The notes: generated by a model not told the origin, from the sequence alone. Positions 1 through 12,409 are shown, numbered from the stretch's first letter. The stretch is DNA of 12,409 nt from a virus (IMGVR_UViG_3300028968_000090), one strand, 5' to 3'. A program made the numbers and translations.

Positions 1-116
1 CTTCGTGTAACTATCGTGGCGGTAACGCCCACGAAGAAATACTATTGCGCTGTGCGCAGAAGAGTAATCACCTAACCAATCATACTGATTGCTTATGTGT
101 AACTCTCTACCTCTTA

Positions 117-271
117 ATTCCACTTCCTACATTTAATAACTCTCGTTATTCTCTGTAGTTGTGTAATTACTCGAAGAGAGCGGCTAAAGCTCAATTACAC
201 TCTGCTTTCCTCGTGTAATTTCACTAAGCCTCAATACAATTTCACTTCCTACATTCTGTAGTCGTGTAATT
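117..271 (+). repeat. Dispersed composite repeat pair plus clustered GTGTAATT-type motifs
   Basis: cacttcctacatt at 121..133 and 243..255; tctgtagt(t/c)gtgtaatt at 152..168 and 255..271. The first copy is split by an ~18-bp insert, the second is contiguous. GTGTAA(T/C)T recurs at 5..12, 97..104, 163..170, 213..220, 265..272 and inverted (caattacac) at 192..200. Confidence 0.6.
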
Positions 272-341
272 GTTTTCGGTGGAAAAGCCAGAGGCGACAC
301 CGAAAGAGAATTCTGATCTTATTAATCTTATCTATCTTAGT

Positions 342-393
342 TATCTTACTTACTTATCTTACTTACTTATCTTACTTACTTATCTTACTTACT
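342..393 (+). repeat. Tandem direct repeat, 4 perfect copies of the 13-bp unit tatcttacttact, with degenerate copies on both sides
   Basis: Perfect units at 342..354, 355..367, 368..380 and 381..393. Degenerate copies at about 320..341 and 394..406. Confidence 0.85.
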
Positions 394-930
394 TTATCTA
401 CTTTATTATTAATAATAGCTTTATAAGCTCTCTGTAGCTCTCTGACGCAAGAAACAGCATTCAGGAAGGGAATCACCTTAGAAAAGTGTTCTTTGCGTCA
501 TAATGTGTTTTATGAAGGATTCAGAGGTGTTTCATAACAGAGATGTATAGAGGATACTTTAATTAATTAAAAATAAGGGGTCTAAATGCTTCTCTAACAG
601 CATTAAGCAGGGTAGAGAATGGAAACGCATTGCCTACATATATAAGCTCACTACAGGGCTTTACAGAACGTTTTATAAAGTGACTCTCTATCTTATATCT
701 ACCATTACCTTTTCATATACCTAACAAATACAAAATAAGCCCCTTAAATAAGCCTCTGGCGAGCTAAACAACCTCTACATAAGAGAATGTATTGCTTTTA
801 TCAAAACTTCGTTAGAACGCGTTTTAGAGCGTTTTAGACAATAATGAAGAATAGCACCACACAGGAGAGCACGAATTGCTAAGAAAAAATGTAAGTGCAT
901 GAAAAAGATCAGATTTTTTATGAAAAGGTA

Positions 931-959
931 TTGACAAATGTTTCTTTATATGTAATAAT
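931..959 (+). promoter_or_regulatory. Sigma70-like promoter candidate (early operon)
   Basis: TTGACA at 931..936, 17-bp spacer, TGT extended -10 element, AATAAT at 954..959. Lies about 110 bp upstream of the first plus-strand gene. Confidence 0.35.
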
Positions 960-1070
960 AGGTATTAGAGGGACAGAAAAACATTCTTCTCTAAATAATC
1001 AAAATCAATGCACTTTGAAGCCGTCAGGCTTGCAAGGTGTTTTTTCTTTTAACTGAATAAGGAGTTTTTT

Positions 1071-1259
1071 ATGAAATGGTTTACCCCGGAGCACGTTGTC
1101 TCGGCATTTAAAAAAGGTGAGCTTACACGCCATCAAGTAGTAATGAATCGTAATATGGCAAGGAGTCGAGGTTATCCAGAGCGAGCAGCTTGCTTCAATG
1201 AAGCACTCAAGATTATTGATGAACTAAGAAAAAATGAAAAAGAATCTGAAACAGAGTAA
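1071..1259 (+). CDS. Hypothetical small protein (62 aa)
   Basis: ORF with SD-like taaggag 8-12 nt upstream of the ATG; first gene after the promoter candidate. No recognisable domain. Confidence 0.5.
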   Translation: MKWFTPEHVVSAFKKGELTRHQVVMNRNMARSRGYPERAACFNEALKIIDELRKNEKESETE

Positions 1260-1278
1260 AGAATAGAAGGAGAAAACT

Positions 1279-1446
1279 ATGAGCGAAACTAAGAAACCAA
1301 TTCCGCGCACTTACCTACACGTTGACCCTGAAATCTTCAAGGTTTTATTTGCTGAAGCCAAGAAAAGGCAAATTATGGTCAGTGATTTGATGTTAGAAAT
1401 CATTACTGAAGCAGCAGAGAACATCAAACAAAAAAAGGGTAAGTGA
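1279..1446 (+). CDS. Small ribbon-helix-helix-like DNA-binding protein (55 aa); not in the supplied ORF track (below its length cutoff)
   Basis: ATG at 1279 preceded by aaggag; TGA at 1444..1446. Translation MSETKKPIPRTYLHVDPEIFKVLFAEAKKRQIMVSDLMLEIITEAAENIKQKKGK has a beta-strand then two helices, the pattern typical of Arc/CopG/MetJ-type RHH proteins. Confidence 0.45.
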   Translation: MSETKKPIPRTYLHVDPEIFKVLFAEAKKRQIMVSDLMLEIITEAAENIKQKKGK

Positions 1447-1497
1447 TCCTCATTCACTTTAGTAGCGCATTAAGCGTGATTTATAAGGAGATTTTTA

Positions 1498-2190
1498 ATG
1501 ATTAATCAACTAACTTTTACAAAACACTATGACACGTTTGATAATGTATCAAAGATTTATTCTGATAAATTCCCTCAAGGAAAAGATTTAGATCTATTAC
1601 ATATTGTGCTTTATTTTCGATTCCTTAGTTATCAGGAAAACAACCTTAATTGTTATGAAAGTCACGAAACATTAGCTAAGATTTTTAAGTCTTCATCGTC
1701 AACAATTAAACGTAAGATAAACGATCTTAAAGAGATGGGATTATTAGAAACATCCCCACATCCTGATCCGTATATTTCATCTTTGATTTACAATGCTCTC
1801 CCTCTCACAGATGCACATATTACTCCCCCAGGAGAATCATCACTCTCTGATCTTTCTGAGGCAGAAGAAGCACAGGAACAACCTAAAGGCCATAAACAGC
1901 CTTCTTTTGATGTTCTTGATGATGATTGGGATACGCCTTTACCGTGGGAGACGGAAGAAACACCTGTTTCATCAAGTGATAAGGTAGCTAATGATAATGA
2001 GGAGGATGTGTTAGAGAATTTTGCCTCTCTTATCATCCAGAAGAAACACACCAGAACAGGAGGGGCATCATTTATAGAATTTGCAAATTCACTAGCTTAT
2101 AGACACGGGCTAAAACGACCAAATGGTATTGAGGCATATTTTTCTAAGAATTACCCAAATGTGTATGAAGACTTTGATATTCCATTTTAA
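1498..2190 (+). CDS. Winged-HTH-like DNA-binding protein with acidic C-terminal region (230 aa); possible replication initiator or transcription regulator
   Basis: Strong RBS (aaggag). Segment LSYQENNLNCYESHETLAKIFKSSSSTIKRKINDLKEMGLLE resembles HTH domains of phage/plasmid replication or regulator proteins. Central and C-terminal part is rich in D/E. Confidence 0.55.
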   Translation: MINQLTFTKHYDTFDNVSKIYSDKFPQGKDLDLLHIVLYFRFLSYQENNLNCYESHETLAKIFKSSSSTIKRKINDLKEMGLLETSPHPDPYISSLIYNALPLTDAHITPPGESSLSDLSEAEEAQEQPKGHKQPSFDVLDDDWDTPLPWETEETPVSSSDKVANDNEEDVLENFASLIIQKKHTRTGGASFIEFANSLAYRHGLKRPNGIEAYFSKNYPNVYEDFDIPF

Positions 2191-2201
2191 TAAGGAGGGT
2201 T

Positions 2202-2480
2202 ATGATTCAATATTTAGTAAAAAATCAAGTAGACAGAATTCAGTGTAATGACACAGGAAAACGCATCTATGAAACGCTTGCTTACCTCTATAAAGGAAAG
2301 CCAACACCGCTAAAATATAGCGATGTGTTACATCGAGCAGGGTGCTCTGAAGATGGTTTAAAATTCTGGCTGAAACAGCTATCAAACTTCGGTGTTATAG
2401 AAATTAAAGAATTATCTTTCTCTACATTCAATCTCAAAAGACTAGATAAAGAAATAGAATTCATCTATTCCACTCTCTAA
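2202..2480 (+). CDS. Small winged-HTH-like protein (92 aa)
   Basis: Strong RBS (aaggaggg) 11 nt after the upstream stop. Segment KYSDVLHRAGCSEDGLKFWLKQLSNFGVIEIKE is HTH-like. Confidence 0.5.
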   Translation: MIQYLVKNQVDRIQCNDTGKRIYETLAYLYKGKPTPLKYSDVLHRAGCSEDGLKFWLKQLSNFGVIEIKELSFSTFNLKRLDKEIEFIYSTL

Positions 2481-2609
2481 AATCTCTCTATGTAATTAAA
2501 ATATAAAAGGAAAACATTATTATGATAGTAGCTATGTATTGGTTATTGTTCTTTCTCACGTTAGAAGCATATTTCGGGGTGTTTTCCTTTAAAAGAAAAG
2601 GAAAAATAA

Positions 2610-3020
2610 ATGGCAAAAAGAAAAAACAACGTTGTTAAGAAAATCGGTGATTCAGCTTCTCTTCTAAGTAAACCTAAATCTATTCTAAGACGTAAAGACT
2701 TTAAAGAGCTAGTTACGCTCACCAAGCAAAATAGCGCCCCTGGCGAATGGAAAACAGAGATCATAGAACATTCTCCCTCTGTGCCTTGCGGAGATGAATT
2801 TAACGCCTTACAAGAAATCTTATCTTCAACACCTGGCGTGTTCTGGAAACCTAGAAAAAGAAAAGAGTATATTGTTGATAGCTCTGATCTACGCAAATAC
2901 CAGATTTTAGGATTTGAAGATTATAATCACTACGTTGGTTATCTCGCCACCAATGGCCTAAATAACTTAGTCCCAGAATTCCAAATTCTATGTAATGCTG
3001 ATCACTATGGAGACTTTTAA
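2610..3020 (+). CDS. Hypothetical protein with basic N-terminus (136 aa)
   Basis: ORF with A-rich RBS region; lysine/arginine-rich N-terminal 35 residues. No recognisable domain. Confidence 0.5.
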   Translation: MAKRKNNVVKKIGDSASLLSKPKSILRRKDFKELVTLTKQNSAPGEWKTEIIEHSPSVPCGDEFNALQEILSSTPGVFWKPRKRKEYIVDSSDLRKYQILGFEDYNHYVGYLATNGLNNLVPEFQILCNADHYGDF

Positions 3021-3021
3021 T

Positions 3022-3360
3022 ATGAACAAAAACACGTATGACACAATTTACTCACTAATTAATTATTATGAGGATGATTACCTCCTGCCTTTAAACCGCG
3101 CTGAACTTGAAGCATACAAAGAAAACACGCCAGCGGCACTAAATGAGGCGTTTAAACACTGGGATTTAGCTGTGAATGCCTTCTCGCACCTCTCTAAGCG
3201 TGTAGAGATGCTCTGTAAGCGTGAGAACGCATATCTAACAGCGGACCAGGTATGGGAGCTATCAAACTGGATAGAAGGTCTTGAATCGGACGTTCGCTAT
3301 GTAGGAGACGGCCTTGTTGAACTAGCTCAACGCTTAGGCGCTACTATCACAGAAGAATAA
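3022..3360 (+). CDS. Hypothetical helical protein (112 aa from ATG 3022; the ORF is open from 2995)
   Basis: ORF 2995..3360 in the track. The ATG at 3022 has a ggag SD 9 nt upstream and is preferred over 2995 and 3007, which lack an SD. The stop/start overlap with the upstream gene suggests coupling. Confidence 0.45.
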   Translation: MNKNTYDTIYSLINYYEDDYLLPLNRAELEAYKENTPAALNEAFKHWDLAVNAFSHLSKRVEMLCKRENAYLTADQVWELSNWIEGLESDVRYVGDGLVELAQRLGATITEE

Positions 3361-3389
3361 AAAAAGCAACAAAAAAGTTGTAAAATATC

Positions 3390-3418
3390 TTGACATTTCA
3401 TCTATTGTATGTTAATAT
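3390..3418 (+). promoter_or_regulatory. Sigma70-like promoter candidate (late/structural operon), same architecture as the promoter at 931
   Basis: TTGACA at 3390..3395, 17-bp spacer, TGT, TAATAT at 3413..3418. Sits directly after the stop of the 3022..3360 gene. Confidence 0.4.
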
Positions 3419-3611
3419 AATTATATAGGGTGATTATTTTTCCTTTATTGGTTCGATATTAAAAATTCTTCTTGTCGTTAAAGGGGAGTAAAATCTCCGC
3501 TCCCCGCTTCTCCTCCTCCTTAAGTGTCATTATTACCTCTTTTTTCCTTTGTTATGCATACATCTTGGAGTATGCATAACATAGGGTAATTACATAGGTA
3601 CAAGTTAATAA

Positions 3612-3641
3612 AAGGCGGCTCTAAATGCTGCCTTTTATTTT
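3612..3641 (+). terminator. Intrinsic-terminator-like hairpin inside the leader of the late operon
   Basis: aaggcggc (3612..3619), 7-nt loop, gctgcctt (3627..3634): 8 pairs including one G-U, followed by ttttatttt. Lies about 60 nt upstream of the ATG at 3704. Confidence 0.4.
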
Positions 3642-3703
3642 GCCCGTTATGCAACTTAAAAGTTGTATTTCTTACTTTAAACAAGGTAACAAGGTTTATA
3701 TAA

Positions 3704-3916
3704 ATGTTGTTCTTAAATGATAAAGAGCAAATCATCAAATATAAAGATGAAATGCTGAAAATTAATCCACAAATTACCGAAATGGTAGCTAAATACGCTG
3801 GGTGTTCTGTCGAGGAAGTAGAAAGATGTGTTGAAAAATATTTTTCTCCTTCTTCTCCGTCTACACCTTCCCTTAATGAATTAATCAAATTAAAAGCTAA
3901 GGAGATTACTAAATGA
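3704..3916 (+). CDS. Hypothetical small protein (70 aa)
   Basis: ORF whose stop overlaps the next start (ATGA at 3913..3916), indicating translational coupling. Confidence 0.5.
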   Translation: MLFLNDKEQIIKYKDEMLKINPQITEMVAKYAGCSVEEVERCVEKYFSPSSPSTPSLNELIKLKAKEITK

Positions 3917-4275
3917 TTATTGATTTAGACACTCTATTTCCAGTTCGAAAGACTTTCACAGATATTGTAAGTTATTGTACTGATCCGTTTGCCTCTGTAG
4001 AAAGCAAGGTTTTTGCTTCTCTTCCTGCTGATGTTGAGTGTGGCGACTTGATCACAAGCACGGGCGCTAAATATGAATCAGGAGATGATATCTATGTTGT
4101 TATGAGTGAATTTTTAACGGCTGGAGAAAACAAGCCTGTAGATGTGCTACGTAGCAATGCTGGCCTTGTCTGCATCAAAGCTGATGCCCTGAATGCTGTA
4201 AGTGAAGCAGCAAAAACAGCATTAATTAAAAAAGGCTTCCAGCTTGAAGGCTTTAATACGGTTTTCACTTCTTAA
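3913..4275 (+). CDS. Hypothetical protein (120 aa); by position possibly a head decoration/scaffold-type partner of the downstream capsid-like gene
   Basis: Strong RBS (aaggag). Sits immediately upstream of the 342-aa gene. No sequence-level recognition of a decoration protein; the functional guess is positional only. Confidence 0.45.
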   Translation: MIIDLDTLFPVRKTFTDIVSYCTDPFASVESKVFASLPADVECGDLITSTGAKYESGDDIYVVMSEFLTAGENKPVDVLRSNAGLVCIKADALNAVSEAAKTALIKKGFQLEGFNTVFTS

Positions 4276-4293
4276 TAAAAGGAATAATAATAA

Positions 4294-5322
4294 ATGATTC
4301 TAGGTAATGATTACGTTGATTTAGCTCCGCTTTTCCAGGCTCATAGCACTAGAAACTATCTGCTCTCTACTCTTGATTTTACGGATTCTGTAGGGGTTAC
4401 ATCTCATAAAGTAGCTGTTTCCCAGCTTGTCGAAAGCAACGAATCTCTGTTCAACAAAGAAACCTCTCGTTTCTCTTCTGAACACAACGTTACTAAGCGA
4501 GAACAAGGTAAAGAATGGCTGATTGAAATCCCTTACTTCCTGCGTGAAGATGTGATCCGTCCTTCTGATGTTCAAGGCAAACGTAAACCTGGCACTGATT
4601 TTCAGGAAACACTCACTGATATTTATGCTGACTATGTTGCTAAACACCACGTAGCGTATCAGCGCACTAAAGAAAGCGTATTGGCTGCATCTCTGTTTAG
4701 CGGTAAAACTTACACGCCTAAAACTGATGATGTGTTAATTGAGTGGGGCAAGCTGTTTAACGTATCAGCTATGAAAGCCACTGTGAACGCTTCCAGCACT
4801 GACACCACGAAGATTTTTAAAGAATTTGATCAGATTGCTACTGACATTATCGAGAAAGCACAAAGCCAGGCGGCTGCTGTAGAGCGTATTGTTGTTTTCT
4901 GTAAGCCGGAAGCCTTCTCTGCAATTCGATTCTCTGCTGGTATGGCAAACGCATTCCAGTATGTAAGCCCACTGGAAGAGGGAAATGTTGTGTACCAGCG
5001 TCGTGACCTGCTACCAGGAGTGACAGCGTTCACTATTCCAGGAACTAACATTGATGTTATTAAACTGGTAGATCCGCTACATCTTGCACATATGACCGCA
5101 GACGCTGTAGCTGTGCCTAAATTCGCTAAAGGCTCTAACGTATATCAGAACATCTACGGGGCTGCTTCCAGCACCTTTGAACTGATCAATGCCGATCCTA
5201 CTGAGGTTTATAGCTACAGCTATGAATCTTCTCGTGGTGATGCTGTTAACGTTGTTACAGAGAATAGCCAGATGGTTGTAAACCACGGTGTAGGCTTCTC
5301 CGTTCAAATCACTGTTAAATAA
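4294..5322 (+). CDS. Putative phage major capsid protein (342 aa), tentatively lambda gpE-like
   Basis: Good RBS; the only gene in the element closed by a strong intrinsic terminator. Size and a few motifs (LAASLFSGKTYT, ERIVVFCKPEAFSAIRF) resemble my recollection of lambda E-type capsid proteins. The function is unverified. Confidence 0.4.
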   Translation: MILGNDYVDLAPLFQAHSTRNYLLSTLDFTDSVGVTSHKVAVSQLVESNESLFNKETSRFSSEHNVTKREQGKEWLIEIPYFLREDVIRPSDVQGKRKPGTDFQETLTDIYADYVAKHHVAYQRTKESVLAASLFSGKTYTPKTDDVLIEWGKLFNVSAMKATVNASSTDTTKIFKEFDQIATDIIEKAQSQAAAVERIVVFCKPEAFSAIRFSAGMANAFQYVSPLEEGNVVYQRRDLLPGVTAFTIPGTNIDVIKLVDPLHLAHMTADAVAVPKFAKGSNVYQNIYGAASSTFELINADPTEVYSYSYESSRGDAVNVVTENSQMVVNHGVGFSVQITVK

Positions 5323-5340
5323 TATTTAACGTGTAATAGA

Positions 5341-5374
5341 GGCGTGGCGTGTATTCACGCTTCGCCTTTTTTTT
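5341..5374 (+). terminator. Rho-independent terminator after the 342-aa gene
   Basis: ggcgtggcgtg (5341..5351), loop tatt, cacgcttcgcc (5356..5366), then 8 T at 5367..5374. Confidence 0.75.
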
Positions 5375-5408
5375 ATTTATTTTTTAAATTTTGAGAGGTG
5401 ATTAAAAT

Positions 5409-5612
5409 ATGGAAGTGATTCTGAAATCAAAAAATGGTGTACACGTACATTTAGATGCTAATGATTCTAGAGGCTTGTTAAATCTGAAATATCTATGTTC
5501 TCTCTTAGATGTTCCATATGAAGGAGTAAAAGCCCGTATGTTCAGATTAAACGAGAGCATTGATCAGGCTCTACACCATTTCTTAAGCAAAGAAGGTGAT
5601 AAAAATGATTAA
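5409..5612 (+). CDS. Hypothetical small protein (67 aa)
   Basis: ORF with gagagg RBS; stop lies 14 nt before the next gene's start. Confidence 0.45.
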   Translation: MEVILKSKNGVHVHLDANDSRGLLNLKYLCSLLDVPYEGVKARMFRLNESIDQALHHFLSKEGDKND

Positions 5613-5626
5613 TAAGGGGATTTTAA

Positions 5627-7477
5627 ATGTTAGAAATTAACACTTCTAAAATTAAGAACACAGTAACATTTAGTGTAGATAAAGACAGCTTGAAAAAAGC
5701 GAAAGACTCTATTACAGGCTTAAAGGGATTCGTAGAAAATATCAAGCCAGCTAAGTTAAGGTTTGATAATGTCACTAAAGGCTATAAGAAAGCACAAAGT
5801 GAAGTAGATAAGATTGCTCAACAGAAAGCTAAAACAGAAAAACAAAATCAAAGAGCACAAGCTGCCGCAGCAAGAGCACAGGCAAGGCAACAGCAACAAA
5901 TAGCAGCACGTAAAGAGAAAGCAGAATTAAAACTGTTAGACGTTGGATCAAGCATTAGTGCAATGCACCGTCTCTCTGTAGCGGAACAATATAAAGCTAT
6001 TGCACAGGCTAGAGAGATAGCAAAACAATATGAGCAAGGCGCTATCTCGCTTGCACGTATGAATAGCCAAATGAAACGCCTACAACAGCAACAACGTAAG
6101 ATTAATGGCAACAGAAAAGCTCAATTAGCCCCCGTTAAGGGAGGATCAGGGAATTCCGCCACTATGGGCGCTCTGTTATTTGGAGGCGCTACAGCGGCGG
6201 CTGGCGTGATGGCTGTAAGCAAAGCCTCTGATTTTGTTACTAGCAGCTTCGCTAACGCAGACACCCAAGGGGAGCTAATTCAACGGGCCAAGCTGGGCGG
6301 TGTAGACGTTAACCAGATGTATAATATTACAGAATGGGCGTATAAAAACGGCGTTGACTCTATGATGGGTGATCAAGGGGCTAGGAAATACCTGGATCAG
6401 ATGAAAGATGTTAGGGAACGTGCCGCAAAATCCTACAGTGAAGCTGAATTGGTGAAAGATAAGCAAACCGGAAAATCTAAATGGAAAGGCGGTGATAACG
6501 CTATTAATGAACTTCTAAACATCGGAGTTATTAACAAAAGCGACCTTAAAAAATTTGCTGATAATCCAGCCGGATTAATTTCTAAGGCTGTTAATGGAAT
6601 GATGAAAAAAGGGTTTTCAGACTCCCAAATTGGACAACGTTTAGAAGACCTGGGCGATGATTTGATGCTTACATCAAAATATTGGCAACGTTCCGTTAAA
6701 GATGTACAAGAAAGTATTAACCAGCAAAAAGCCTCTGGAAAATGGCTAACAGAAACACAGCAAGACTCTATTGTTAAGTTCAGAGAACTAAACAGACAGC
6801 TTTCACAGCTTTCTGATGCAAGACAAGTAGCATTCGTAGACGGCTTTATGAAATCTCTTGATCCAAAAGTAACGGAAGAGTTTATGAAAAACCTTTCTAA
6901 TCTCACTCCGTATTTTACAAAACTGGGAGAAGCCACGGGAAGTCTCTTTGAAGCTATTATGAAGATTGTAAACTGGTTTAATCGTAATGATGATAAGACA
7001 GATGCTATTCAGAAAAATATGGGTGATGCACCGCCATTAAGCAATGATGGGATGAAGAAGAATTTAGATAATCTCACTCCTGATCAATATAAAGGCGCTG
7101 GCACTGCAACAACTACACCTGATAATAGTCATTCTCTCTTTAACACGATTAAGGGATGGCTTTTCGATGATAATGCTTCTTCTGTGTCAGATGTAAAAAT
7201 GTCAGTCAGCGAAGCACCGATAACCAATCTCAAACAGGGTGCTTTAAATAATCTTGCAATGACAACTCCGGCTTATAATTTATCTCCTGTATTCAATCTG
7301 AATCCTACATTTGAAGTGGTAACAGAGGTTCCTCTTACTATTAATTCTGACACATCAAGATTAAGCGATTATGTGGATTTTACAGCAAGAGCAAGTCGGG
7401 ATAGCTTCTTGAAATCATTAACATTAACCAGCTTATCAGGACAATCCAACGGCGGGNNNNNNNNNNTCCCGCCATAA
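5627..7477 (+). CDS. Large coiled-coil protein with a Gly/Ala-rich hydrophobic segment (about 616 aa); tape-measure-, scaffold- or ejection-protein-like. C-terminus uncertain because of the N gap
   Basis: RBS aagggg. Q/A/K/R-rich predicted coiled coil at about residues 60-165; hydrophobic GALLFGGATAAAGVMAVSKA segment. The ORF crosses the 10 N at 7457..7466, so the reading frame beyond the gap is not established. Confidence 0.55.
   Translation: MLEINTSKIKNTVTFSVDKDSLKKAKDSITGLKGFVENIKPAKLRFDNVTKGYKKAQSEVDKIAQQKAKTEKQNQRAQAAAARAQARQQQQIAARKEKAELKLLDVGSSISAMHRLSVAEQYKAIAQAREIAKQYEQGAISLARMNSQMKRLQQQQRKINGNRKAQLAPVKGGSGNSATMGALLFGGATAAAGVMAVSKASDFVTSSFANADTQGELIQRAKLGGVDVNQMYNITEWAYKNGVDSMMGDQGARKYLDQMKDVRERAAKSYSEAELVKDKQTGKSKWKGGDNAINELLNIGVINKSDLKKFADNPAGLISKAVNGMMKKGFSDSQIGQRLEDLGDDLMLTSKYWQRSVKDVQESINQQKASGKWLTETQQDSIVKFRELNRQLSQLSDARQVAFVDGFMKSLDPKVTEEFMKNLSNLTPYFTKLGEATGSLFEAIMKIVNWFNRNDDKTDAIQKNMGDAPPLSNDGMKKNLDNLTPDQYKGAGTATTTPDNSHSLFNTIKGWLFDDNASSVSDVKMSVSEAPITNLKQGALNNLAMTTPAYNLSPVFNLNPTFEVVTEVPLTINSDTSRLSDYVDFTARASRDSFLKSLTLTSLSGQSNGGXXXXPP
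7457..7466. other. Assembly gap or masked bases (10 N)
   Basis: Run of n characters flanked by an inverted repeat, ggcggg on the left and tcccgcc on the right. Confidence 0.95.
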
Positions 7478-7498
7478 CATTACAAGGAAATTATTATT

Positions 7499-8212
7499 AT
7501 GGCGACCGCCGGGATTTTAACCATACGTGCAGCAAATACTCCAGAACAACACGTTCAGGCTGTTTACAAAGCAGAACAAGATATAAACTCTACAAAAAAC
7601 GAAAATAGCAAAGCTAATAAAACAAAAGGAGAGAACGGATTTGCTATTGTTACCAGTGGCTTGGCATCTTCTGGCAATGACGTTTATGAAAATTATATGG
7701 CACTGGCCTTTGACAGTGTAGACGATGTGAACGTGAGACGTTCGGCAGATGTCACAAGCTACCCCGTAGAAAATGGTGCTACTGTGTCTGATCACGTTCA
7801 AATTAAAAACAATAAATTTTCTCTTAAAGGGCGTATCTCTGAAACACCGATTAAAAGCGATCCTGGCTTGTTAAAGAGTGCAGGGGTGAACGGGAACAGA
7901 AGATCATTAGCTATCGACTACCTGAATCAGATTATGGACAGTAGACAGCCTTTTCTTCTTGTTACAGAAAATAAAACTTTTGAGAACGTTGTTTTAACAG
8001 GCATCGAATACACAGAAGAGGCAAGCGAATCCCTGGTATTTGATCTTAGCTTTGAGCAAATAAGATTAGTTTCTTATGGCACTGTAAACACTGTAGCTAT
8101 CAAAACACAGCCATCTAAGAACATCGGGGCTAATATGAAAAAACGTGTTAACACTGAAAAACCAAGTAGTGAAGGTGAAGACACTATTACTCCTGCCTTT
8201 AAGCAGGAATAG
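7499..8212 (+). CDS. Hypothetical protein (237 aa), last plus-strand gene before the integrase
   Basis: ORF with aagga RBS. No recognisable domain. Confidence 0.5.
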   Translation: MATAGILTIRAANTPEQHVQAVYKAEQDINSTKNENSKANKTKGENGFAIVTSGLASSGNDVYENYMALAFDSVDDVNVRRSADVTSYPVENGATVSDHVQIKNNKFSLKGRISETPIKSDPGLLKSAGVNGNRRSLAIDYLNQIMDSRQPFLLVTENKTFENVVLTGIEYTEEASESLVFDLSFEQIRLVSYGTVNTVAIKTQPSKNIGANMKKRVNTEKPSSEGEDTITPAFKQE

Positions 8213-8252
8213 CCGTAAACGCCTCTAAAACGCTCTGTAACGATGTAATTAT

Positions 8253-8286
8253 AAAAGAGGCTACCAATCTATGTTGAAGCCTCTTT
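8253..8286 (-). terminator. Possible terminator hairpin between convergent genes (downstream of the integrase on the minus strand)
   Basis: 9-bp stem aaagaggct / agcctcttt with a 15-nt loop. On the minus strand the stem is followed by a U-rich tract (ttttataatt). The integrase stop is 8 nt away. Confidence 0.3.
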
Positions 8287-8293
8287 ATTGCGT

Positions 8294-9628
8294 CTATGGC
8301 GTTGTTTTACGCCTTAAATTTGATTTTTTATTGATTGATAAGCCTTTCTCTATTTCAGGGTAGCGTAGAAGCTCAATATAGTTTTTAAGCTCTACTGGAG
8401 AAGCTGCATTCTTGCTATATGTGCGGAATGTCTCTGTATTACCGCGTGTATGGCCCAGGAGAAGGGCGATCCTGTCTTCTGGAATTTGATTTCGATCAAG
8501 AAGCTGTGCTACTCCGTGTCTCAGAGAATGAAACACCTTCCTTTCTGTTCCCTTTTCCCCTAAAGCCTTTCGTTTAGCTCTTGTAAATCTCTGCGTGTGC
8601 CACGTGGAACGTTTACCATCAGCACGTTCTGTGATGCTGGCGTGATAGAACAAAAAGCCATTGTGAGGCTTTTCACGAAGAGATAACACCAACGGAGTGA
8701 TAAGGCTATGCACAGGCACAACACGTGCCGCAGCTTTCGTTTTTCCCTGTGTGATTTCAAAACACAGCACACCTTCGATCTCTTTCACATCGTCTATTGT
8801 GAGACTTGCTATCTCATTGATCCGCATACCTGTATAAGCACCGATAAGACACAAAGCCATCATTTCTTTGTTTTCTGCTGAATTACCGGAAAATACTTGC
8901 AACACTTGCAATAGCTCTTTGTTAGAAAATGCCTCATAGCTCTCTCTACTTTGTGCCACATCAAGCCTATGCCCTCGCCAGGGGGAGAGCGCCCTTTCTG
9001 GCGCATCGTGGTAACGTGATGAAGCTAACTCCCATAGCTGGGCCATTGGGCTGATATAATTTGCAATTGATTGTTGTGAAAGGGTTTTTTGCATGTGTTC
9101 AATCCAGCCTGTAACAGTGGTGCGGCTCACATCTTGCAATGCAATATCAGGCTTTTTACGGTAGGAGAGAAACATCTCTACCGCTTTTCTTGCCTTAGCT
9201 AAAGTGGCTGGCTTCTTCTTCGTGCTGTTAATTGTCAGGTAGATTTCAAGAATTTTAAGCAATGACGGACACGAAGACGCTGTATCTTGCATTCTGGTAG
9301 CTGTTTTGGCGTATTTAGCCTTACTGCGTAACAGTTCCAGCGTGTTCTCTATTGTGCTGTTTACAGGGGCGACACTCTCCCGTAGACAATGGTATTCATC
9401 TGCAATCTGATCACGCTTTCTACGTGCAACACGAAGATTACTTGTATGTAGACTCCTGACAAACGTCCTTTTTCCTTCAAAAAAGGGCTGCATATACACA
9501 GGCAACGTGATCCTCAAATAGTAGTTACCGTAAGAATCACAGATTATGTATTGGTTAGGCTTGTATCTCATAAAATCTCCGGCTAAAGTGTCGGAGCGTT
9601 TGTAATGTGAAAATTGATTGTAACGCAT
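8294..9628 (-). CDS. int: Tyrosine-type site-specific integrase (phage integrase family)
   Basis: C-terminal catalytic signature: TGMRINE (Arg box), HSLRH, LLGH and a downstream Tyr (RTYSK). Sits beside the tRNA-derived attachment core. The internal ATG at 9571 has a ggag SD and may be the true start (425 aa instead of 444 aa). Confidence 0.85.
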   Translation of the reverse strand: MRYNQFSHYKRSDTLAGDFMRYKPNQYIICDSYGNYYLRITLPVYMQPFFEGKRTFVRSLHTSNLRVARRKRDQIADEYHCLRESVAPVNSTIENTLELLRSKAKYAKTATRMQDTASSCPSLLKILEIYLTINSTKKKPATLAKARKAVEMFLSYRKKPDIALQDVSRTTVTGWIEHMQKTLSQQSIANYISPMAQLWELASSRYHDAPERALSPWRGHRLDVAQSRESYEAFSNKELLQVLQVFSGNSAENKEMMALCLIGAYTGMRINEIASLTIDDVKEIEGVLCFEITQGKTKAAARVVPVHSLITPLVLSLREKPHNGFLFYHASITERADGKRSTWHTQRFTRAKRKALGEKGTERKVFHSLRHGVAQLLDRNQIPEDRIALLLGHTRGNTETFRTYSKNAASPVELKNYIELLRYPEIEKGLSINKKSNLRRKTTP

Positions 9629-9671
9629 AGAAAATGATAATTTTTTCTATAAGATTCAATCAATTAGTAAT

Positions 9672-9733
9672 GGTCGTAGGTGATGGCATTAACACGAGAT
9701 TAATCGAGTGTTTTACTCCTATTATCGGCACCA
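9672..9733 (+). other. tRNA-Thr-derived attachment site: 3'-end fragment of a thrW-like tRNA (pseudo-tRNA, ptwF-like)
   Basis: actcctattatcggcacca at 9715..9733 matches the 3' T-arm/acceptor/CCA end of enterobacterial tRNA-Thr(CGU) as I recall it. ggtcgtaggt at 9672..9681 matches the preceding tRNA segment but is separated from the rest by a 33-nt non-tRNA insert. There is no intact tRNA. Confidence 0.55.
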
Positions 9734-9859
9734 TTAAAATCAAAGAGTTACCCCATATTTAAATACACCACGTTTCCTCCTGTGCCGCATTTGTGCCATT
9801 GTAACCTTGGCAATTCATCAAAATACTGTTCTGACATCAGGCAGTGCAGGTGCAGCTAT

Positions 9860-10270
9860 TTAAACCAATTGCTGCCGCCATTCTTTGACGTAGTCAATCA
9901 GGGCGCGGAGCTTTGGTGCAATATTGCGACGCTGTGGGAAATACAGATAGAAGCCCGGAAATTGTGGAAGAAAGTCATCAAGCAGCGATACAAGCTTACC
10001 GCTTTCAATATATGGCCTGAAAGTTTCCTGAGTGGCAATTGTTATTCCTCCGCCGGCAAGAGCCAGCCTCACCATCAGACGCAGATCATTAGTCGTAATC
10101 TGCGGTTCAATCGCAAGGTCGAAAGTTCTCCCGTTTTCTTCAAATGGCCAGCGATAAGGCGCAACCTCCGGGGACTGACGCCAGCCGATACACTTATGGG
10201 TATTTCCCCCGGAGGCGAGAAAGCGCTCTCCACGCCCGGCCGCAAGGATCAGGACGACGGGGGCAGGCAT
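9860..10270 (-). CDS. yagP: Truncated LysR-family regulator remnant: substrate-binding domain only, no N-terminal HTH (136 aa)
   Basis: C-terminal LysR-like sequence (FPQRRNIAPKLRALIDYVKEWRQ). Its start overlaps the stop of the upstream XdhC-family gene, so there is no room for the HTH domain. Matches the 136-aa yagP remnant downstream of paoD in E. coli, from memory. Confidence 0.55.
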   Translation of the reverse strand: MPAPVVLILAAGRGERFLASGGNTHKCIGWRQSPEVAPYRWPFEENGRTFDLAIEPQITTNDLRLMVRLALAGGGITIATQETFRPYIESGKLVSLLDDFLPQFPGFYLYFPQRRNIAPKLRALIDYVKEWRQQLV

Positions 10271-11205
10271 GAATCCTCCTCATGATGGAGACGTACAGAG
10301 GCGATTTCTGCCAGCACGGAGAGTGCCAGAGTATGCGCATCCCGGGCTTTGGGGAATATCCCGACGGGGGCCCGGATTTGCGCTGTCTCCTCCCTGGACC
10401 ATCCCAGCTCGTGGAGCTTTTGCAGACGTAACGTGTGGGTTCGATGGCTGCCCAATGCGCCGAGATAAAAGGGTTTTGCTTCTCGCGCGGCCTGCAATGC
10501 TGGCAGCTCCCGGTTGAGATCATGGCACAGCAAAATGACCGCCGTGTCGGTATCGATCTGAGCGCTGGCTGAGGCCGGAAAAAGATCGAAGATATGGCTG
10601 TCATAGCCTGTGGCTGCTGCAAGACTCGCGGTTGCCTGCGCCTCAAGAGAACGTCCGTAAATCATCAGCCTGACGCATGGCCTGAACCCCACCTCAAAGC
10701 CATTGAGATTCCAGCCCGTTCGGGTTTGCGTGGGCAGGCACACCAACGATTGTGCTTGCGGATCGTAGCGCAGCCCCGCCGGTTTTCTCTGTTCCAGACG
10801 GTTCAGCACGGCGAGCAGAGGCTGTGCCGAGCGTAGTTTATGGAGCGTCAGCGTGATCCCACCGCCGCAGGGCAGAACGATGTCAAACCACGGCGAACCT
10901 TCGCCATAGCGAATTTCGCGATCGCGGCCTGAGCCCATCATCTCCAGCGCTTCAAAAGCGGCAGCGGCCTCCACGCAGCCGCCAGAGACAAAACCGCAGT
11001 AACGACCATCTTCGCGAACCACCATCTGCGCCCCGAGCGGGCGCGCCGCGCCGCCGTGTATCTCCACCAGCGTCACCAGCACCGCTCCTTTACCGGACAT
11101 TAGCGCCTCTACGGCGAAGCGCAGAATGGTCCGGTGGTCATCGGTGAGAAACGCCTGCTCTGGCTTATGCCAGTGTTCGTCTTTATCAAAAAGCGGGTAT
11201 GACAT
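10249..11205 (-). CDS. paoD: XdhC/CoxI-family molybdenum cofactor insertion/maturation factor (318 aa)
   Basis: N-terminal XdhC signature (GAARPLGAQMVV...GFVSGGCVE) and a C-terminal Rossmann-like domain. Sits directly downstream of the Mo-binding aldehyde oxidoreductase subunit gene, as in paoABCD. Confidence 0.8.
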   Translation of the reverse strand: MSYPLFDKDEHWHKPEQAFLTDDHRTILRFAVEALMSGKGAVLVTLVEIHGGAARPLGAQMVVREDGRYCGFVSGGCVEAAAAFEALEMMGSGRDREIRYGEGSPWFDIVLPCGGGITLTLHKLRSAQPLLAVLNRLEQRKPAGLRYDPQAQSLVCLPTQTRTGWNLNGFEVGFRPCVRLMIYGRSLEAQATASLAAATGYDSHIFDLFPASASAQIDTDTAVILLCHDLNRELPALQAAREAKPFYLGALGSHRTHTLRLQKLHELGWSREETAQIRAPVGIFPKARDAHTLALSVLAEIASVRLHHEEDSCLPPSS

Positions 11206-11214
11206 TGTTTCTCC

Positions 11215-12409
11215 TTAAACCACATCCGGCAGCTTATCGAGCAGCTTATCCAGAGTGATGGGATAATCCCGTACCCGAATACCGGTGGCGTTATACACCG
11301 CGTTGGCGATAGCCGCGCTCACGCCGCACAGGCCCAGCTCACCGACACCTTTGGCCTTCATCGGGGAGGATATGGGGTCGGTATCATCCAGGAAAATCAC
11401 CTCCTGTTTTGGGATATCCGCATGGACCGGCACCTCATACCCCGCCATATCGTGATTAACGAAGTAGCCCAAACGGTCATCCACCGCCAGCTCCTCCATC
11501 AGTGCCGCGCCCATGCCCATAGTCATTGCGCCAATGACCTGGCTGCGCGCAGTTTTCGGATTCAGGATGCGTCCTGCAGCACACACAGCGAGCATACGCC
11601 GGACCCGAACTTCTCCCGTCGCGCTATGCACGCCGACCTCCACAAAATGCCCGGCAAAGGTCGACTGCTGGTACTCTTTGCTCAGTGTTCCGAATTCAAT
11701 GCTCTCTTCCGCTGTCAGTCTGCCGCCTGCGGTGGCTTCATGTAGCGTGGCGCTTCGGGTACCGTTGGTAATCTTGCCGTCGGCAAACTGCGACTGCTCA
11801 GGATCAAACCCGACTGCCGAGGCAATCATTTCGCGAAGCTTCATACAGGCGGCGTAAACGCCGGAGGTGGAGGTATTCGCGCCCCATTGTCCACCAGAAC
11901 CCGCAGAAACCGGGAAACTGGAATCGCCGAGGTGAACCGCAACCTGCTCCAGCGGTACGCCAAGCATTTCCGCTGCCGTCTGGGCCAGAATGGTGTAGCT
12001 GCCGGTGCCAATGTCGGTCATGTCCGTTTCTACGGTAACGGTGCCGTTTTGTTCGAGGTGAACCCGAGCACCCGATTTTTCCAGCAGATTATTGCGAAAG
12101 CCCGCCGCAACACCGTGGCCGACTAGCCACTCCCCGTCGCGCACCTGTCCGGGTGTGGCGTTGCGCTGCTTCCAGCCAAATTTATCCGCTCCGGTGCGCA
12201 AGCACTCGATAAGCTGACGGCGAGAGAAGCAGCGCGTCGGGTCGGCGGGGTCAACCTGAGTGTCATTCAGGATGCGAAACTCGACGGGATCGATGCCCGC
12301 TTTTTCCGCCAGTTCGTCGATCGCGATTTCGAGCGCCATCAGACCGGGGGCTTCGCCGGGCGCACGCATGGCGTTCCCTTCCGGCAAATCAAGCGTGGCG
12401 AGCCGCAGG
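11215..12409 (-). CDS. paoC: Aldehyde oxidoreductase molybdopterin-binding subunit, 3' (C-terminal) portion; the gene continues beyond the window
   Basis: Aldehyde oxidase/xanthine dehydrogenase molybdopterin-binding C-terminal domain motifs (GVGELGLCGVSAAIANAVYNATGIRVRDYPIT). The 5' end of the gene lies beyond position 12409 (the supplied ORF begins at an internal Met at 12387). Confidence 0.8.
   Translation of the reverse strand, partial: LRLATLDLPEGNAMRAPGEAPGLMALEIAIDELAEKAGIDPVEFRILNDTQVDPADPTRCFSRRQLIECLRTGADKFGWKQRNATPGQVRDGEWLVGHGVAAGFRNNLLEKSGARVHLEQNGTVTVETDMTDIGTGSYTILAQTAAEMLGVPLEQVAVHLGDSSFPVSAGSGGQWGANTSTSGVYAACMKLREMIASAVGFDPEQSQFADGKITNGTRSATLHEATAGGRLTAEESIEFGTLSKEYQQSTFAGHFVEVGVHSATGEVRVRRMLAVCAAGRILNPKTARSQVIGAMTMGMGAALMEELAVDDRLGYFVNHDMAGYEVPVHADIPKQEVIFLDDTDPISSPMKAKGVGELGLCGVSAAIANAVYNATGIRVRDYPITLDKLLDKLPDVV

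What the first reader, a model, noticed from the sequence alone, without database searches (positions are those of the whole stretch)
1..9733. Compact integrative element with a capsid-like gene but no packaging or tail machinery: candidate phage satellite or undescribed hijacker
About 9.7 kb of AT-rich DNA is organised as tidy co-directional operons: small regulators, a repeated late-type promoter, a capsid-like 342-aa gene, a 616-aa coiled-coil protein and a 237-aa protein. It ends with a tyrosine integrase at a tRNA-Thr-derived att core. No terminase, portal, prohead protease, major tail, holin or endolysin is recognisable, and the genes do not look decayed (good RBSs, coupling, terminators). 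That combination is not a typical lambdoid prophage, nor P4-like (no primase, sid or psu recognisable), nor a capsid-forming PICI (which would carry terminase and portal). It could be a minimal satellite that supplies only a capsid or scaffold component, or an unrelated mobile element.
Basis: partly seen in the sequence, partly recalled or inferred. Interest (0 to 1): 0.75.

Follow-up and report, generated by a model that had tools for sequence, protein, structure and literature searches.

The report
Satellite of phi92-like virulent coliphages
This is most of a 12-kb mobile island in the E. coli chromosome that makes its own capsid shell and two tail-core proteins and copies a DNA end-signal of the large lytic phage phi92, so it is probably an undescribed parasite ("satellite") of that phage group, which is used in phage therapy.

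Summary
Related complete genomes show a 12.1-12.6 kb island between thrW (tRNA-Thr) and a 20-bp att copy at window 9715-9734. The window lacks its left ~2.4-2.9 kb. Four genes are homologues, in the same order, of phi92 virion proteins: cement protein gp123 (120 aa), major capsid protein gp124 (342 aa), tape measure gp134 (616 aa) and tube initiator gp135 (237 aa, 60% identical). No terminase, portal, sheath, tube or lysis gene exists anywhere in the element. Just left of the window, E. coli copies carry 40 nt identical to phi92 positions 318-357, which straddle the inner edge of its 343-bp terminal repeat. This is a likely packaging-site mimic, and 425 of 5426 complete E. coli genomes have it. 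The same gene layout recurs at 37-80% capsid identity in Klebsiella, Enterobacter, Citrobacter, Cronobacter and Serratia, at different tRNA sites, always 12-14 kb. Genes are under purifying selection (dN/dS 0.04-0.25). [quoted passage not shown] No experiment supports this, I found no excised circles, and I found no published description.

The parts
1..1070 (+). Right part of the long non-coding left arm. It holds inverted ATTACAC-type motifs at about 5, 164, 200, 218 and 269, a 13-nt tandem array at 327-403, and a strong sigma-70-like promoter at 931-959 ahead of the early operon. The origin iterons and the phi92-like packaging block lie further left, outside the window.
1071..1259 (+). 62-aa conserved small protein, first gene of the early operon, function unknown
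   Evidence: Orthologues at 31-65% identity across genera. dN/dS 0.0-0.2. No family hit.
1279..1446 (+). 55-aa small protein. It may be a ribbon-helix-helix regulator, but that is my reading of the sequence only and was not tested.
   Evidence: Conserved in several lineages. No family hit.
1498..2190 (+). 230-aa replication-initiator-like winged-helix protein. This module is swapped between lineages.
   Evidence: PHROG replication initiation families (phrog_270, E 3.6e-9) and Pfam HTH_36 just below its cut-off. Five 22-23-nt iterons plus an AT-rich stretch lie in the left arm of L001. dN/dS about 1.
2202..2480 (+). 92-aa conserved protein, function unknown
2610..3020 (+). 136-aa conserved protein with a basic N-terminus, function unknown
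   Evidence: 33-53% identity in all Enterobacteriaceae lineages examined. dN/dS 0.11-0.13.
2995..3360 (+). 121-aa acidic conserved protein, function unknown
3390..3648 (+). Promoter (TTGACA-17-TAATAT at 3390-3418) followed by a highly structured leader of about 225 nt that ends in a predicted terminator-like hairpin at about 3606-3640, directly upstream of the structural operon. A comparably long non-coding gap sits at this position in other lineages, several with a promoter-like start and a terminator-like hairpin.
   Evidence: Fold z-score -6.25. Alignment A4.
3704..3916 (+). 70-aa protein, first gene of the structural operon, function unknown
3913..4275 (+). 120-aa capsid decoration/cement protein, counterpart of phi92 gp123
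   Evidence: AF2 model pLDDT 86. The top 9 Foldseek PDB hits are minor chains of 122-148 residues from the Sf14, Bas63 and PhiTE capsids (prob 1.0, TM 0.52-0.67). Remote homologues hit phrog_2680, 'head decoration', which is gp123's own PHROG. Same position and C-terminal FTS motif as gp123.
4294..5322 (+). 342-aa HK97-fold major capsid protein (lambda gpE family), counterpart of phi92 gp124
   Evidence: Pfam Phage_cap_E 1.6e-14. phrog_29. 22% identity over the full length to gp124. Family HMM against gp124 E 3.9e-20. PDB 21uy_N.
5339..5363 (+). Intrinsic-terminator-like hairpin after the capsid gene
5409..5612 (+). 67-aa conserved protein just upstream of the tape measure gene, function unknown
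   Evidence: No detectable similarity to phi92 gp133.
5627..7477 (+). 616-aa tape measure protein homologue, counterpart of phi92 gp134. A 10-N gap lies at 7458-7467.
   Evidence: phrog_16051 E 9e-53. All but a few of the 134 matching phage records are Stephanstirmvirinae-type genomes of about 145-150 kb. PDB 21vq_V E 1e-39. Family HMM against gp134 E 1e-109.
7499..8212 (+). 237-aa tail tube initiator, counterpart of phi92 gp135
   Evidence: Pfam Dit_like 2.6e-29. 60% identity to gp135. PDB 21vq_N 7.6e-78. gp135 is the hexameric tube initiator in the phi92 structure (PMC13450770).
8294..9628 (-). Tyrosine integrase (DUF6538 + SAM-like + catalytic domain)
   Evidence: dN/dS 0.04-0.11.
9715..9734 (+). 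attR core ACTCCTATTATCGGCACCAT, a copy of the 3' end of thrW and the right end of the element

Best explanation
The window holds the right-hand ~9.7 kb of a 12.1-12.6 kb integrative phage satellite. It belongs to an undescribed family found across Enterobacterales. The helper of the E. coli lineage is a phi92-like (Justusliebigvirus / Stephanstirmvirinae) virulent myovirus of about 148 kb.

Proposed mechanism:
1. The element sits at thrW, held there by its integrase (shown: integrase, att repeats).
2. On infection by the helper it excises and replicates from its own initiator and iteron origin (inferred from the gene content).
3. Its structural operon sits behind a promoter and a terminated, structured leader, and is switched on by read-through (inferred).
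4. It makes its own capsid shell from its own major capsid protein and cement protein. The shell would be small, about T=4, to fit 12-14 kb. It uses helper portal, scaffold or protease, and terminase, none of which it encodes (the homologies are shown; the assembly is inferred).
5. The helper terminase recognises the element's copy of the phage terminal-repeat boundary sequence and packages satellite DNA (sequence identity is shown; function is inferred).
6. The satellite's tape measure and tube initiator enter helper baseplate hubs. Tails are then built on satellite-specified cores. This would either give satellite-adapted tails or divert helper tail assembly (inferred).

The net result would be satellite spread and probably reduced helper yield.
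For: - Whole-element boundaries and size.
- Four structural genes, in phi92 order, fall in the same PHROGs as phi92 gp123, gp124, gp134 and gp135. They are also supported by PDB sequence hits to the phi92 chains themselves, by family HMMs and by a structure search.
- The tape measure protein matches 134 phage records, all but a few of them Stephanstirmvirinae-type genomes, for both the E. coli and the Klebsiella element.
- A 40-nt exact match, within about 90 nt of similarity, links the element to phi92 positions 318-357 across the 343-bp DTR boundary. A 342-bp DTR was found independently by PhageTerm in phage BME3 (PMC12210895).
- The block is not part of a conserved ORF. It stays intact where its flanks differ. 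It is present in 425 of 5426 E. coli genomes.
- Synteny is conserved across genera at different tRNA sites, within a narrow 12.1-14.2 kb size range.
- Selection is purifying.
- Tail genes track phage sequences while the capsid gene forms its own clade.
- A replication module and iterons are present.
- Cargo hotspots resemble those of P4 and PICI elements.
Against: - There are no experimental data.
- I found no excised circle, attP junction or virion-derived contig. The 12-14 kb metagenome contigs are integrated copies broken at thrW, and the IMG/VR hits are predicted proviruses.
- Only one boundary of the phage DTR is mimicked, and no counterpart of the left cut site was found.
- Klebsiella and Enterobacter elements show no DNA match to any phage in the collection.
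- The capsid protein is only 22-26% identical to the helper's. Co-assembly with the helper portal and scaffold is therefore unproven.
- No excisionase, repressor or inducer-sensing gene was identified.
- Seven conserved small proteins have no assigned function.
Confidence: 0.6

Rival explanations
1. It is a defence island rather than a transmissible satellite. The phage-derived capsid, cement, tape measure and tube-initiator proteins act as dominant-negative decoys that poison assembly of infecting phi92-like phages. The DTR-boundary copy titrates or misdirects the phage terminase. The element spreads only by ordinary integration and transduction.
For: The homologues are of exactly those proteins that nucleate or template assembly. 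Tail genes track the phage sequences. No particle or circle evidence was found. Other satellites and islands are known to interfere with tail or capsid assembly (established knowledge of PICI, P4 and PLE).
Against: The element keeps a replication initiator, iterons and an integrase. Its size is tightly constrained to 12-14 kb across genera. These features are expected for a packaged replicon, not for a static defence locus. The capsid and cement pair forms a coherent, slowly evolving, satellite-specific clade, as expected for a shell that self-assembles. PADLOC gives no hit. This reading is not mutually exclusive with the best explanation.
Confidence: 0.15
2. It is a satellite, but of a different and so far unsequenced helper, for example a temperate relative of the rV5/FelixO1/phi92 supergroup. 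The similarity to phi92 reflects common ancestry or gene exchange rather than a helper relationship.
For: The capsid protein is as close to Pseudomonas Pakpunavirus/Otagovirus-type capsids (25%) as to phi92's (22%). Elements in Klebsiella, Enterobacter and Serratia have no phage DNA match.
Against: The 40-nt exact identity to the DTR boundary, the 60-67% identical tube initiator and the near-exclusive tape measure hits all point to the Stephanstirmvirinae themselves. In the public collections the exact block occurs only in these phages and these elements.
Confidence: 0.12
3. It is a decaying remnant of an ordinary prophage that has lost its terminase, portal and most tail genes.
For: It occupies a tRNA hotspot that also holds cryptic prophages such as CP4-6, Sp1 and Sp2. 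It carries only a subset of the structural genes.
Against: The same minimal gene set and order recur at 37-80% protein identity in at least six genera and at three or more different tRNA sites. dN/dS is 0.04-0.25. No pseudogenes or gene fragments lie between att sites. The relatives of the structural genes are strictly virulent 148-kb phages that do not lysogenise.
Confidence: 0.03
4. It is an integrative plasmid-like or other mobile element that merely carries phage-derived morons, and the phage-like DNA block is a shared regulatory site (a promoter or operator) rather than a packaging signal.
For: Terminal-repeat regions of phages often hold early regulatory sites. The block's function is untested.
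Against: Four co-ordered virion-protein homologues under strong constraint are hard to explain as morons. The block straddles the exact DTR edge. No conjugation or mobilisation genes are present.
Confidence: 0.05

Closest known systems
Capsid-forming PICIs (cf-PICIs) of Enterobacteria
   Same: Integrative islands of about 10-15 kb that encode their own HK97-fold capsid protein and build satellite-specific small capsids, relying on a helper for the rest.
   Different: cf-PICIs encode a complete head and packaging set (portal, protease, head-tail connectors, small terminase) and take only tails from temperate helpers. This element has no portal, protease, connector or terminase. It carries tail-core genes (tape measure, tube initiator), and its relatives are virulent 148-kb myoviruses.
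PLE of Vibrio cholerae (satellite of virulent myovirus ICP1)
   Same: A small chromosomal island that parasitises a large virulent myovirus, with its own replication initiator, small capsids and helper-specific arms-race signatures.
   Different: PLE uses ICP1's coat protein, remodelled by the scaffold TcaP, and encodes no capsid, cement, tape measure or tube-initiator homologue. The integrase type and integration site differ. No sequence similarity was detected here.
P4-like satellites of P2-like phages
   Same: An island of about 11.6 kb integrated at a tRNA gene, in a T=4-sized genome class. It carries a copy of the helper's packaging site (cos), has a capsid decoration protein (Psu), and has defence-gene hotspots. 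P4-like Sp2 occupies the same thrW site in O157 Sakai.
   Different: P4 has a primase-helicase (alpha), Sid, Delta and Epsilon, and uses the P2 capsid protein gpN. None of these is present here. This element's structural genes and packaging mimic relate to DTR-type virulent phages.
PICMIs (Vibrionaceae minimalist satellites of virulent phages)
   Same: Satellites of virulent phages with reduced gene content and helper-dependent packaging.
   Different: PICMIs carry no capsid or tail genes and are packaged as concatemers in full-size helper capsids (PMC10803314 abstract). This element carries four structural genes.
phi92 / Justusliebigvirus structural module (gp123, gp124, gp134, gp135)
   Same: Homologous proteins in the same relative order, and a shared DTR-boundary sequence.
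   Different: The phage has about 250 genes and a T=13 head. The element keeps only four of its roughly 25 structural genes. Identity is 22% for the capsid protein, about 32-36% for the tape measure protein and 60% for the tube initiator. Cement-protein homology is detectable only by structure or transitively through remote homologues.

Membership tests
Phage satellite (general definition) | Lacks genes needed for autonomous virion production | tested here: met
   No terminase, portal, protease, sheath, tube, baseplate wedge, fibre or lysis gene lies within the 12.1 kb between the att sites.
Phage satellite (general definition) | Carries cis or trans functions that exploit a specific helper, such as a packaging-site mimic or structural-protein interfaces | tested here: met
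   40-nt identity to the phi92 DTR boundary. Tape measure and tube-initiator homologues of the same phage group.
Phage satellite (general definition) | Helper-dependent induction, packaging and transfer | not testable with these tools
   This needs infection experiments. A search for circular or virion-derived contigs was negative.
cf-PICI | Own portal, prohead protease, head-tail connectors and small terminase in addition to the capsid protein | tested here: not met
   Pfam, PHROG and NCBIfam scans of every ORF find none of these.
P4-like satellite | alpha primase-helicase, sid, psu, delta, and a cos site of P2 type | tested here: not met
   No such family hits. The real P4-like Sp2 at the same site looks entirely different.
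Classical PICI (Gram-negative) | int - alpA - pri/rep layout, a redirecting small terminase or Rpp, and a temperate helper | tested here: not met
   There is no alpA, primase, TerS or Rpp hit. The only shared features are an integrase and a replication initiator.
PLE | Vibrio-specific gene set (RepA_N initiator, TcaP, NixI and others) | tested here: not met
   No similarity appeared in the PHROG or Pfam scans. The host range is Enterobacterales.
Intact or cryptic lambdoid prophage | Immunity region, Q/late operon, terminase-portal-head-tail-lysis modules or their recognisable remnants | tested here: not met
   None is present. Compare Sp1 at the same site in Sakai.

The most novel reading that the evidence does not exclude
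This is the founding member of a new satellite family that follows a strategy not seen before. It brings its own capsid shell (major capsid protein plus cement protein) and its own tail-core template (tape measure protein, with or without a tube initiator), and takes everything else from a large virulent DTR-packaging myovirus. The stolen parts include the terminase, which it recruits with a copy of the helper's terminal-repeat boundary. It is resident in about 8% of complete E. coli genomes and in many other Enterobacterales, so it is a hidden determinant of the success of phi92/phAPEC8-type therapeutic phages.
Probability: 0.5. Interest if true: 0.85.

Novelty: new variant of a known kind. 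Interest (0 to 1): 0.8.

Why it matters
Known E. coli satellites (P4-like, PICI, cf-PICI) exploit temperate phages of about 40 kb. A common chromosomal satellite aimed at 148-kb virulent Stephanstirmvirinae would be the first E. coli counterpart of the Vibrio PLE-ICP1 system. It would also add a new hijacking logic: its own shell and its own tape measure, with portal, terminase and the tail exterior stolen from the helper.

The question becomes directly testable with available materials: phi92, BASEL or Justusliebigvirus phages, and carrier strains such as 14EC029 or SF-468. These phages are used in therapeutic and biocontrol cocktails, so carriage of the element could explain strain-specific failure of productive infection and unexpected gene transfer. 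The 40-nt block also marks a candidate packaging site for a phage subfamily whose packaging signals are uncharacterised.

Tried and rejected
- Rfam scan of the whole element: only the thrW tRNA reached threshold.
- BLASTP and HMM or hhalign comparisons of the 62, 55, 92, 136, 121, 70 and 67-aa proteins with 23 phi92 structural-region proteins: nothing significant.
- First AF2 model of the 120-aa protein with a shallow alignment: pLDDT 38, unusable. Profile search against PDB sequences: nothing. Resolved only after a deep HMMER search supplied remote homologues.
- Search for circular or excised forms. IMG/VR hits are provirus predictions. Metagenome contigs of 12.5-14 kb have no terminal overlap and are collinear with the integrated form, broken at thrW or att.
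- Search for a second phage-like site matching the phi92 left terminus: only chance 11-12-mers, in inconsistent orientation.
- Non-coding DNA of the Klebsiella and Enterobacter elements against all phages: no match.
- Shared promoter motifs with phi92: both use generic strong sigma-70 -35 contexts, which is not diagnostic.
- Identity with named islands: K-12 CP4-6 and O157 Sakai Sp1 and Sp2 occupy the same site but are unrelated.
- PADLOC and NCBIfam: only weak HTH hits for the Rep-like protein.
- Ten literature searches found no description of this element or of any satellite of Stephanstirmvirinae. The library is incomplete, so prior description cannot be excluded.


Full report
**What is in the window.** The window is E. 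coli chromosome. Positions 9736-12409 are 99.1% identical to the K-12 yagP'/paoD/paoC region. GC content drops from 57-60% there to 33-47% over positions 1-9700. The low-GC part holds 12 co-directional ORFs on the plus strand and a tyrosine integrase on the minus strand at 8294-9628. It ends in a 20-bp copy of the 3' end of tRNA-Thr thrW at 9715-9734. A 10-N assembly gap lies at 7458-7467.

**True extent.** 280 of 5426 complete E. coli genomes hold at least 80% of window 1-9800 at about 95-97% identity.
- In strain 14EC029 (locus L001) the element runs from thrW to the att copy. The direct repeats ACTCCTATTATCGGCACCAT lie 12,091 bp apart.
- Window position 1 corresponds to L001 position 20001, so about 2.4 kb of the element lies left of the window. 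In the closest relatives this is about 2.9 kb, giving a 12,577-bp element.
- That left arm is almost free of ORFs. It holds five 22-23-nt iterons next to an AT-rich stretch.
- No terminase, portal, protease, sheath, tube, fibre or lysis gene exists anywhere between the att sites.

**Gene identities.** The four recognisable structural genes match phi92 virion proteins as follows.

| Window gene | phi92 counterpart | Main evidence |
|---|---|---|
| 342 aa | major capsid protein gp124 | Pfam Phage_cap_E E 1.6e-14 and phrog_29. Collinear with gp124 at 22% identity. Family HMM E 3.9e-20. PDB 21uy. |
| 616 aa | tape measure protein gp134 | phrog_16051 E 9e-53. PDB 21vq_V E 1e-39. Family HMM E 1e-109. 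|
| 237 aa | tube initiator gp135 | 60% identical. PDB 21vq_N E 7.6e-78. Hexameric tube initiator in the phi92 cryo-EM structure (PMC13450770). |
| 120 aa | cement protein gp123 | Structure and transitive homology, detailed below. |

- The tape measure protein matches 134 phage records, all but a few of them Stephanstirmvirinae-type genomes of about 145-150 kb.
- The 120-aa protein upstream of the capsid gene resisted sequence methods, and a shallow AF2 run failed.
- A deep HMMER search then supplied remote homologues. Two of them hit phrog_2680, 'head decoration', which is the PHROG of phi92 cement protein gp123.
- With the deeper alignment, AF2 gave pLDDT 86. The nine best Foldseek PDB hits are the 122-148-residue minor capsid chains of the Sf14, Bas63 and PhiTE capsids (prob 1.0, TM 0.52-0.67).
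- hhalign also lines up the C-terminal halves of the 120-aa family and gp123, and both end in FTS.

The element therefore carries homologues of phi92 gp123, gp124, gp134 and gp135 in the phage's own order. It carries none of the roughly 20 other structural genes. The 230-aa protein resembles phage replication initiators. Seven other conserved small proteins remain unassigned.

**The link to the helper's DNA ends.** I ran BLASTN of the non-coding left arm against 50,697 phage records.
- The search found 64 matching records, all but one from enterobacterial phages of about 145-154 kb, and those whose taxonomy I checked are Stephanstirmvirinae.
- L001 positions 18775-18814 are 40/40 identical to phi92 positions 318-357.
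- The phi92 record annotates a 343-bp direct terminal repeat at positions 1-343. The match therefore straddles its inner boundary, GCGTTA|AGCACC.
- A 342-bp DTR was found independently with PhageTerm in the Justusliebigvirus BME3 (PMC12210895).
- An alignment with a Klebsiella and a Citrobacter member of the subfamily shows about 90 nt of similarity, with an invariant 26-nt core (AAAATCGCGTTAAGCACCTCTCGCAA) (the first base of the 27-mer varies in phage Tr1).
- The block is not part of a conserved ORF.
- It stays intact in elements whose immediate flanks differ.
- It occurs in 425 of 5426 complete E. coli genomes, always on the chromosome.
- In the public collections the exact core is found only in these phages and these elements.
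- A copy of the helper's packaging site is the classic signature of a satellite (P4 cos; established knowledge). I infer that this is one. Function is untested, and only one DTR edge is mimicked.

**A conserved family.** Capsid homologues occur only in Enterobacterales chromosomes. Identity to the window protein is 77-97% in E. coli, 60-64% in Citrobacter, Enterobacter, Cronobacter, K. aerogenes and Dryocola, 56% in K. pneumoniae, 41% in Sodalis and 37-39% in Serratia.
- Their contexts share one architecture. In order, it is a long non-coding arm, two small genes, a swappable Rep-like gene, three small genes and a non-coding leader of about 350-700 bp. Then follow a 70-74-aa gene, the cement gene, the capsid gene, a 63-67-aa gene, a 610-629-aa tape measure gene, a variable cargo slot and a minus-strand integrase.
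- Integration sites differ: tRNA-Thr, tRNA-Gly(CCC), tRNA-Leu(CAA), and an unresolved site with no tRNA gene nearby in Serratia.
- Sizes stay within 12.1-14.2 kb. This is the range of T=4 satellites such as P4 at 11.6 kb (established knowledge), which fits a capsid-limited genome.
- Between E. coli copies, dN/dS is 0.04-0.25 for all genes except the Rep-like one, which is about 1. Capsid-gene dS reaches 0.3-0.4, indicating old, exchanged alleles.
- A decaying prophage remnant is therefore very unlikely.

**Co-evolution pattern.**
- Capsid proteins of the elements form their own clade: 57-80% identity among Enterobacteriaceae members against 22-26% to phi92.
- Tape measure proteins are as far from each other across lineages (28-40%) as from phi92 (27-39%).
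- The tube initiator of one lineage is closer to phi92 (65-67%) than to the E. coli elements (51-54%).
- This fits tail-core proteins that must fit helper-encoded partners (hub, tube) and are repeatedly exchanged with, or track, the helpers. The shell proteins mainly interact with themselves.
- The slot between the tape measure gene and the integrase is a cargo hotspot. In Klebsiella it holds a Cas2/VapD-like moron that is 67% identical to a P2 hotspot gene.

**Regulation (weak inference).** A sigma-70-like promoter lies at 3390-3418. It is followed by a strongly structured leader of about 225 nt (z -6.25) that ends in a terminator-like hairpin just before the structural operon. Other lineages have a comparably long non-coding gap at this position, several with a promoter-like start and a terminator-like hairpin. 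This suggests read-through or antitermination control. I could not confirm the 'repeated late promoter'; the repeated 22-mer is an RBS junction.

**What is missing.**
- There is no evidence of excision or packaging. IMG/VR hits are provirus calls. Metagenome contigs of element size are integrated copies broken at thrW.
- The non-coding DNA of the Klebsiella and Enterobacter elements matches no phage in the collection.
- No excisionase or repressor was recognised.

**Comparison with known systems.**
- The element fails the defining gene sets of cf-PICI (no portal, protease, connector or TerS), P4-like, classical PICI and PLE.
- It is unrelated to the islands that occupy thrW in K-12 (CP4-6) and in O157 Sakai (Sp1, and the P4-like Sp2).
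- In life style it works most like PLE-ICP1: a small island against a large virulent myovirus. It resembles cf-PICI in having its own capsid protein, and P4 in carrying a packaging-site copy, a decoration protein and a genome of about 12 kb.
- The combination of its own shell, its own tape measure and tube initiator, and a stolen portal, terminase and tail exterior is not described for any of them.
- Ten full-text searches found no description of it, nor of any satellite of Stephanstirmvirinae. A December 2025 commentary names P4, PICIs, cf-PICIs, the Vibrio PICI-like elements (PLE) and the new jumbo-phage-associated islands. The library is incomplete, so novelty is provisional.

**Verdict.** The finding is real and interesting. 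[quoted passage not shown] A decoy or defence role is a compatible alternative. A different helper, or a purely regulatory role for the shared block, are the less likely alternatives.

Noticed in passing
window 327-403: A 13-nt tandem array, CTTATCTTACTTA x5.9, lies in the non-coding arm. It is shorter in L001, so its length varies between strains.
   Followed up: partly
window about 5, 164, 200, 218, 269; L001 18890-20269: About 12 copies of ATTACAC(A/G) occur within 1.4 kb, where about 0.3 would be expected. Seven direct copies lie left of the five origin iterons (L001 19704-19815) and four inverted copies lie right of them, converging on the iterons. They look like binding sites for an element-encoded protein.
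   Followed up: partly
L003 2768-3585; L007 3955-4726; L006 2932-3689: Family members outside E. coli carry a catalytic-domain-only tyrosine recombinase (183-205 aa) plus a partner of about 63-67 aa on the minus strand at their left end. Both are absent from the E. coli thrW copies. They could be a multimer resolvase or a directionality factor.
   Followed up: no
L003 13331-13791; L008 13520-13987; L003 4394-5083; L007 2311-3932: There are two cargo hotspots. One lies between the tape measure gene and the integrase: a Cas2/VapD-like 92-aa moron, 67% identical to a P2-EC53 hotspot gene, in Klebsiella, and a 155-aa protein in Enterobacter. The other is at the left end: a Dam methylase in Klebsiella, and an HNH protein plus a 258-aa protein in Enterobacter.
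   Followed up: partly
window 1498-2190: The Rep-like gene is the only one with dN/dS near or above 1 between E. coli copies. It is replaced by unrelated initiators in other lineages.
   Followed up: partly
window 3424-3648: The 225-nt leader folds far better than shuffled controls (z -6.25), with a long perfect hairpin at about 3548-3582 and a terminator-like hairpin at about 3606-3640. It has no Rfam match and could be a regulatory RNA.
   Followed up: partly
window 7458-7467: A run of ten N, an assembly gap, lies inside the 3' end of the tape measure gene. The ORF length of 616 aa is therefore approximate; it is 610 aa in L001.
   Followed up: yes
window 9860-10270 (minus strand): yagP here is a truncated LysR-type gene with only the substrate-binding domain. 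RefSeq marks it as lacking its N-terminus in 14EC029, next to the att site, whereas O157 Sakai carries a longer, 900-bp yagP.
   Followed up: no
L132, L133 (GTDB genome contigs): Two short contigs binned as 'Bacillota bacterium' MAGs are in fact fragments of this E. coli element, 94% identical to L001 and including the phage-like block. They are probably mis-binned.
   Followed up: yes
phage collection records MG065639, MG065645, MG065656 and others: Records named 'Campylobacter phage' (about 146 kb) match the same phi92 proteins at the same identities as the Justusliebigvirus coliphages. Their host attribution looks doubtful.
   Followed up: no
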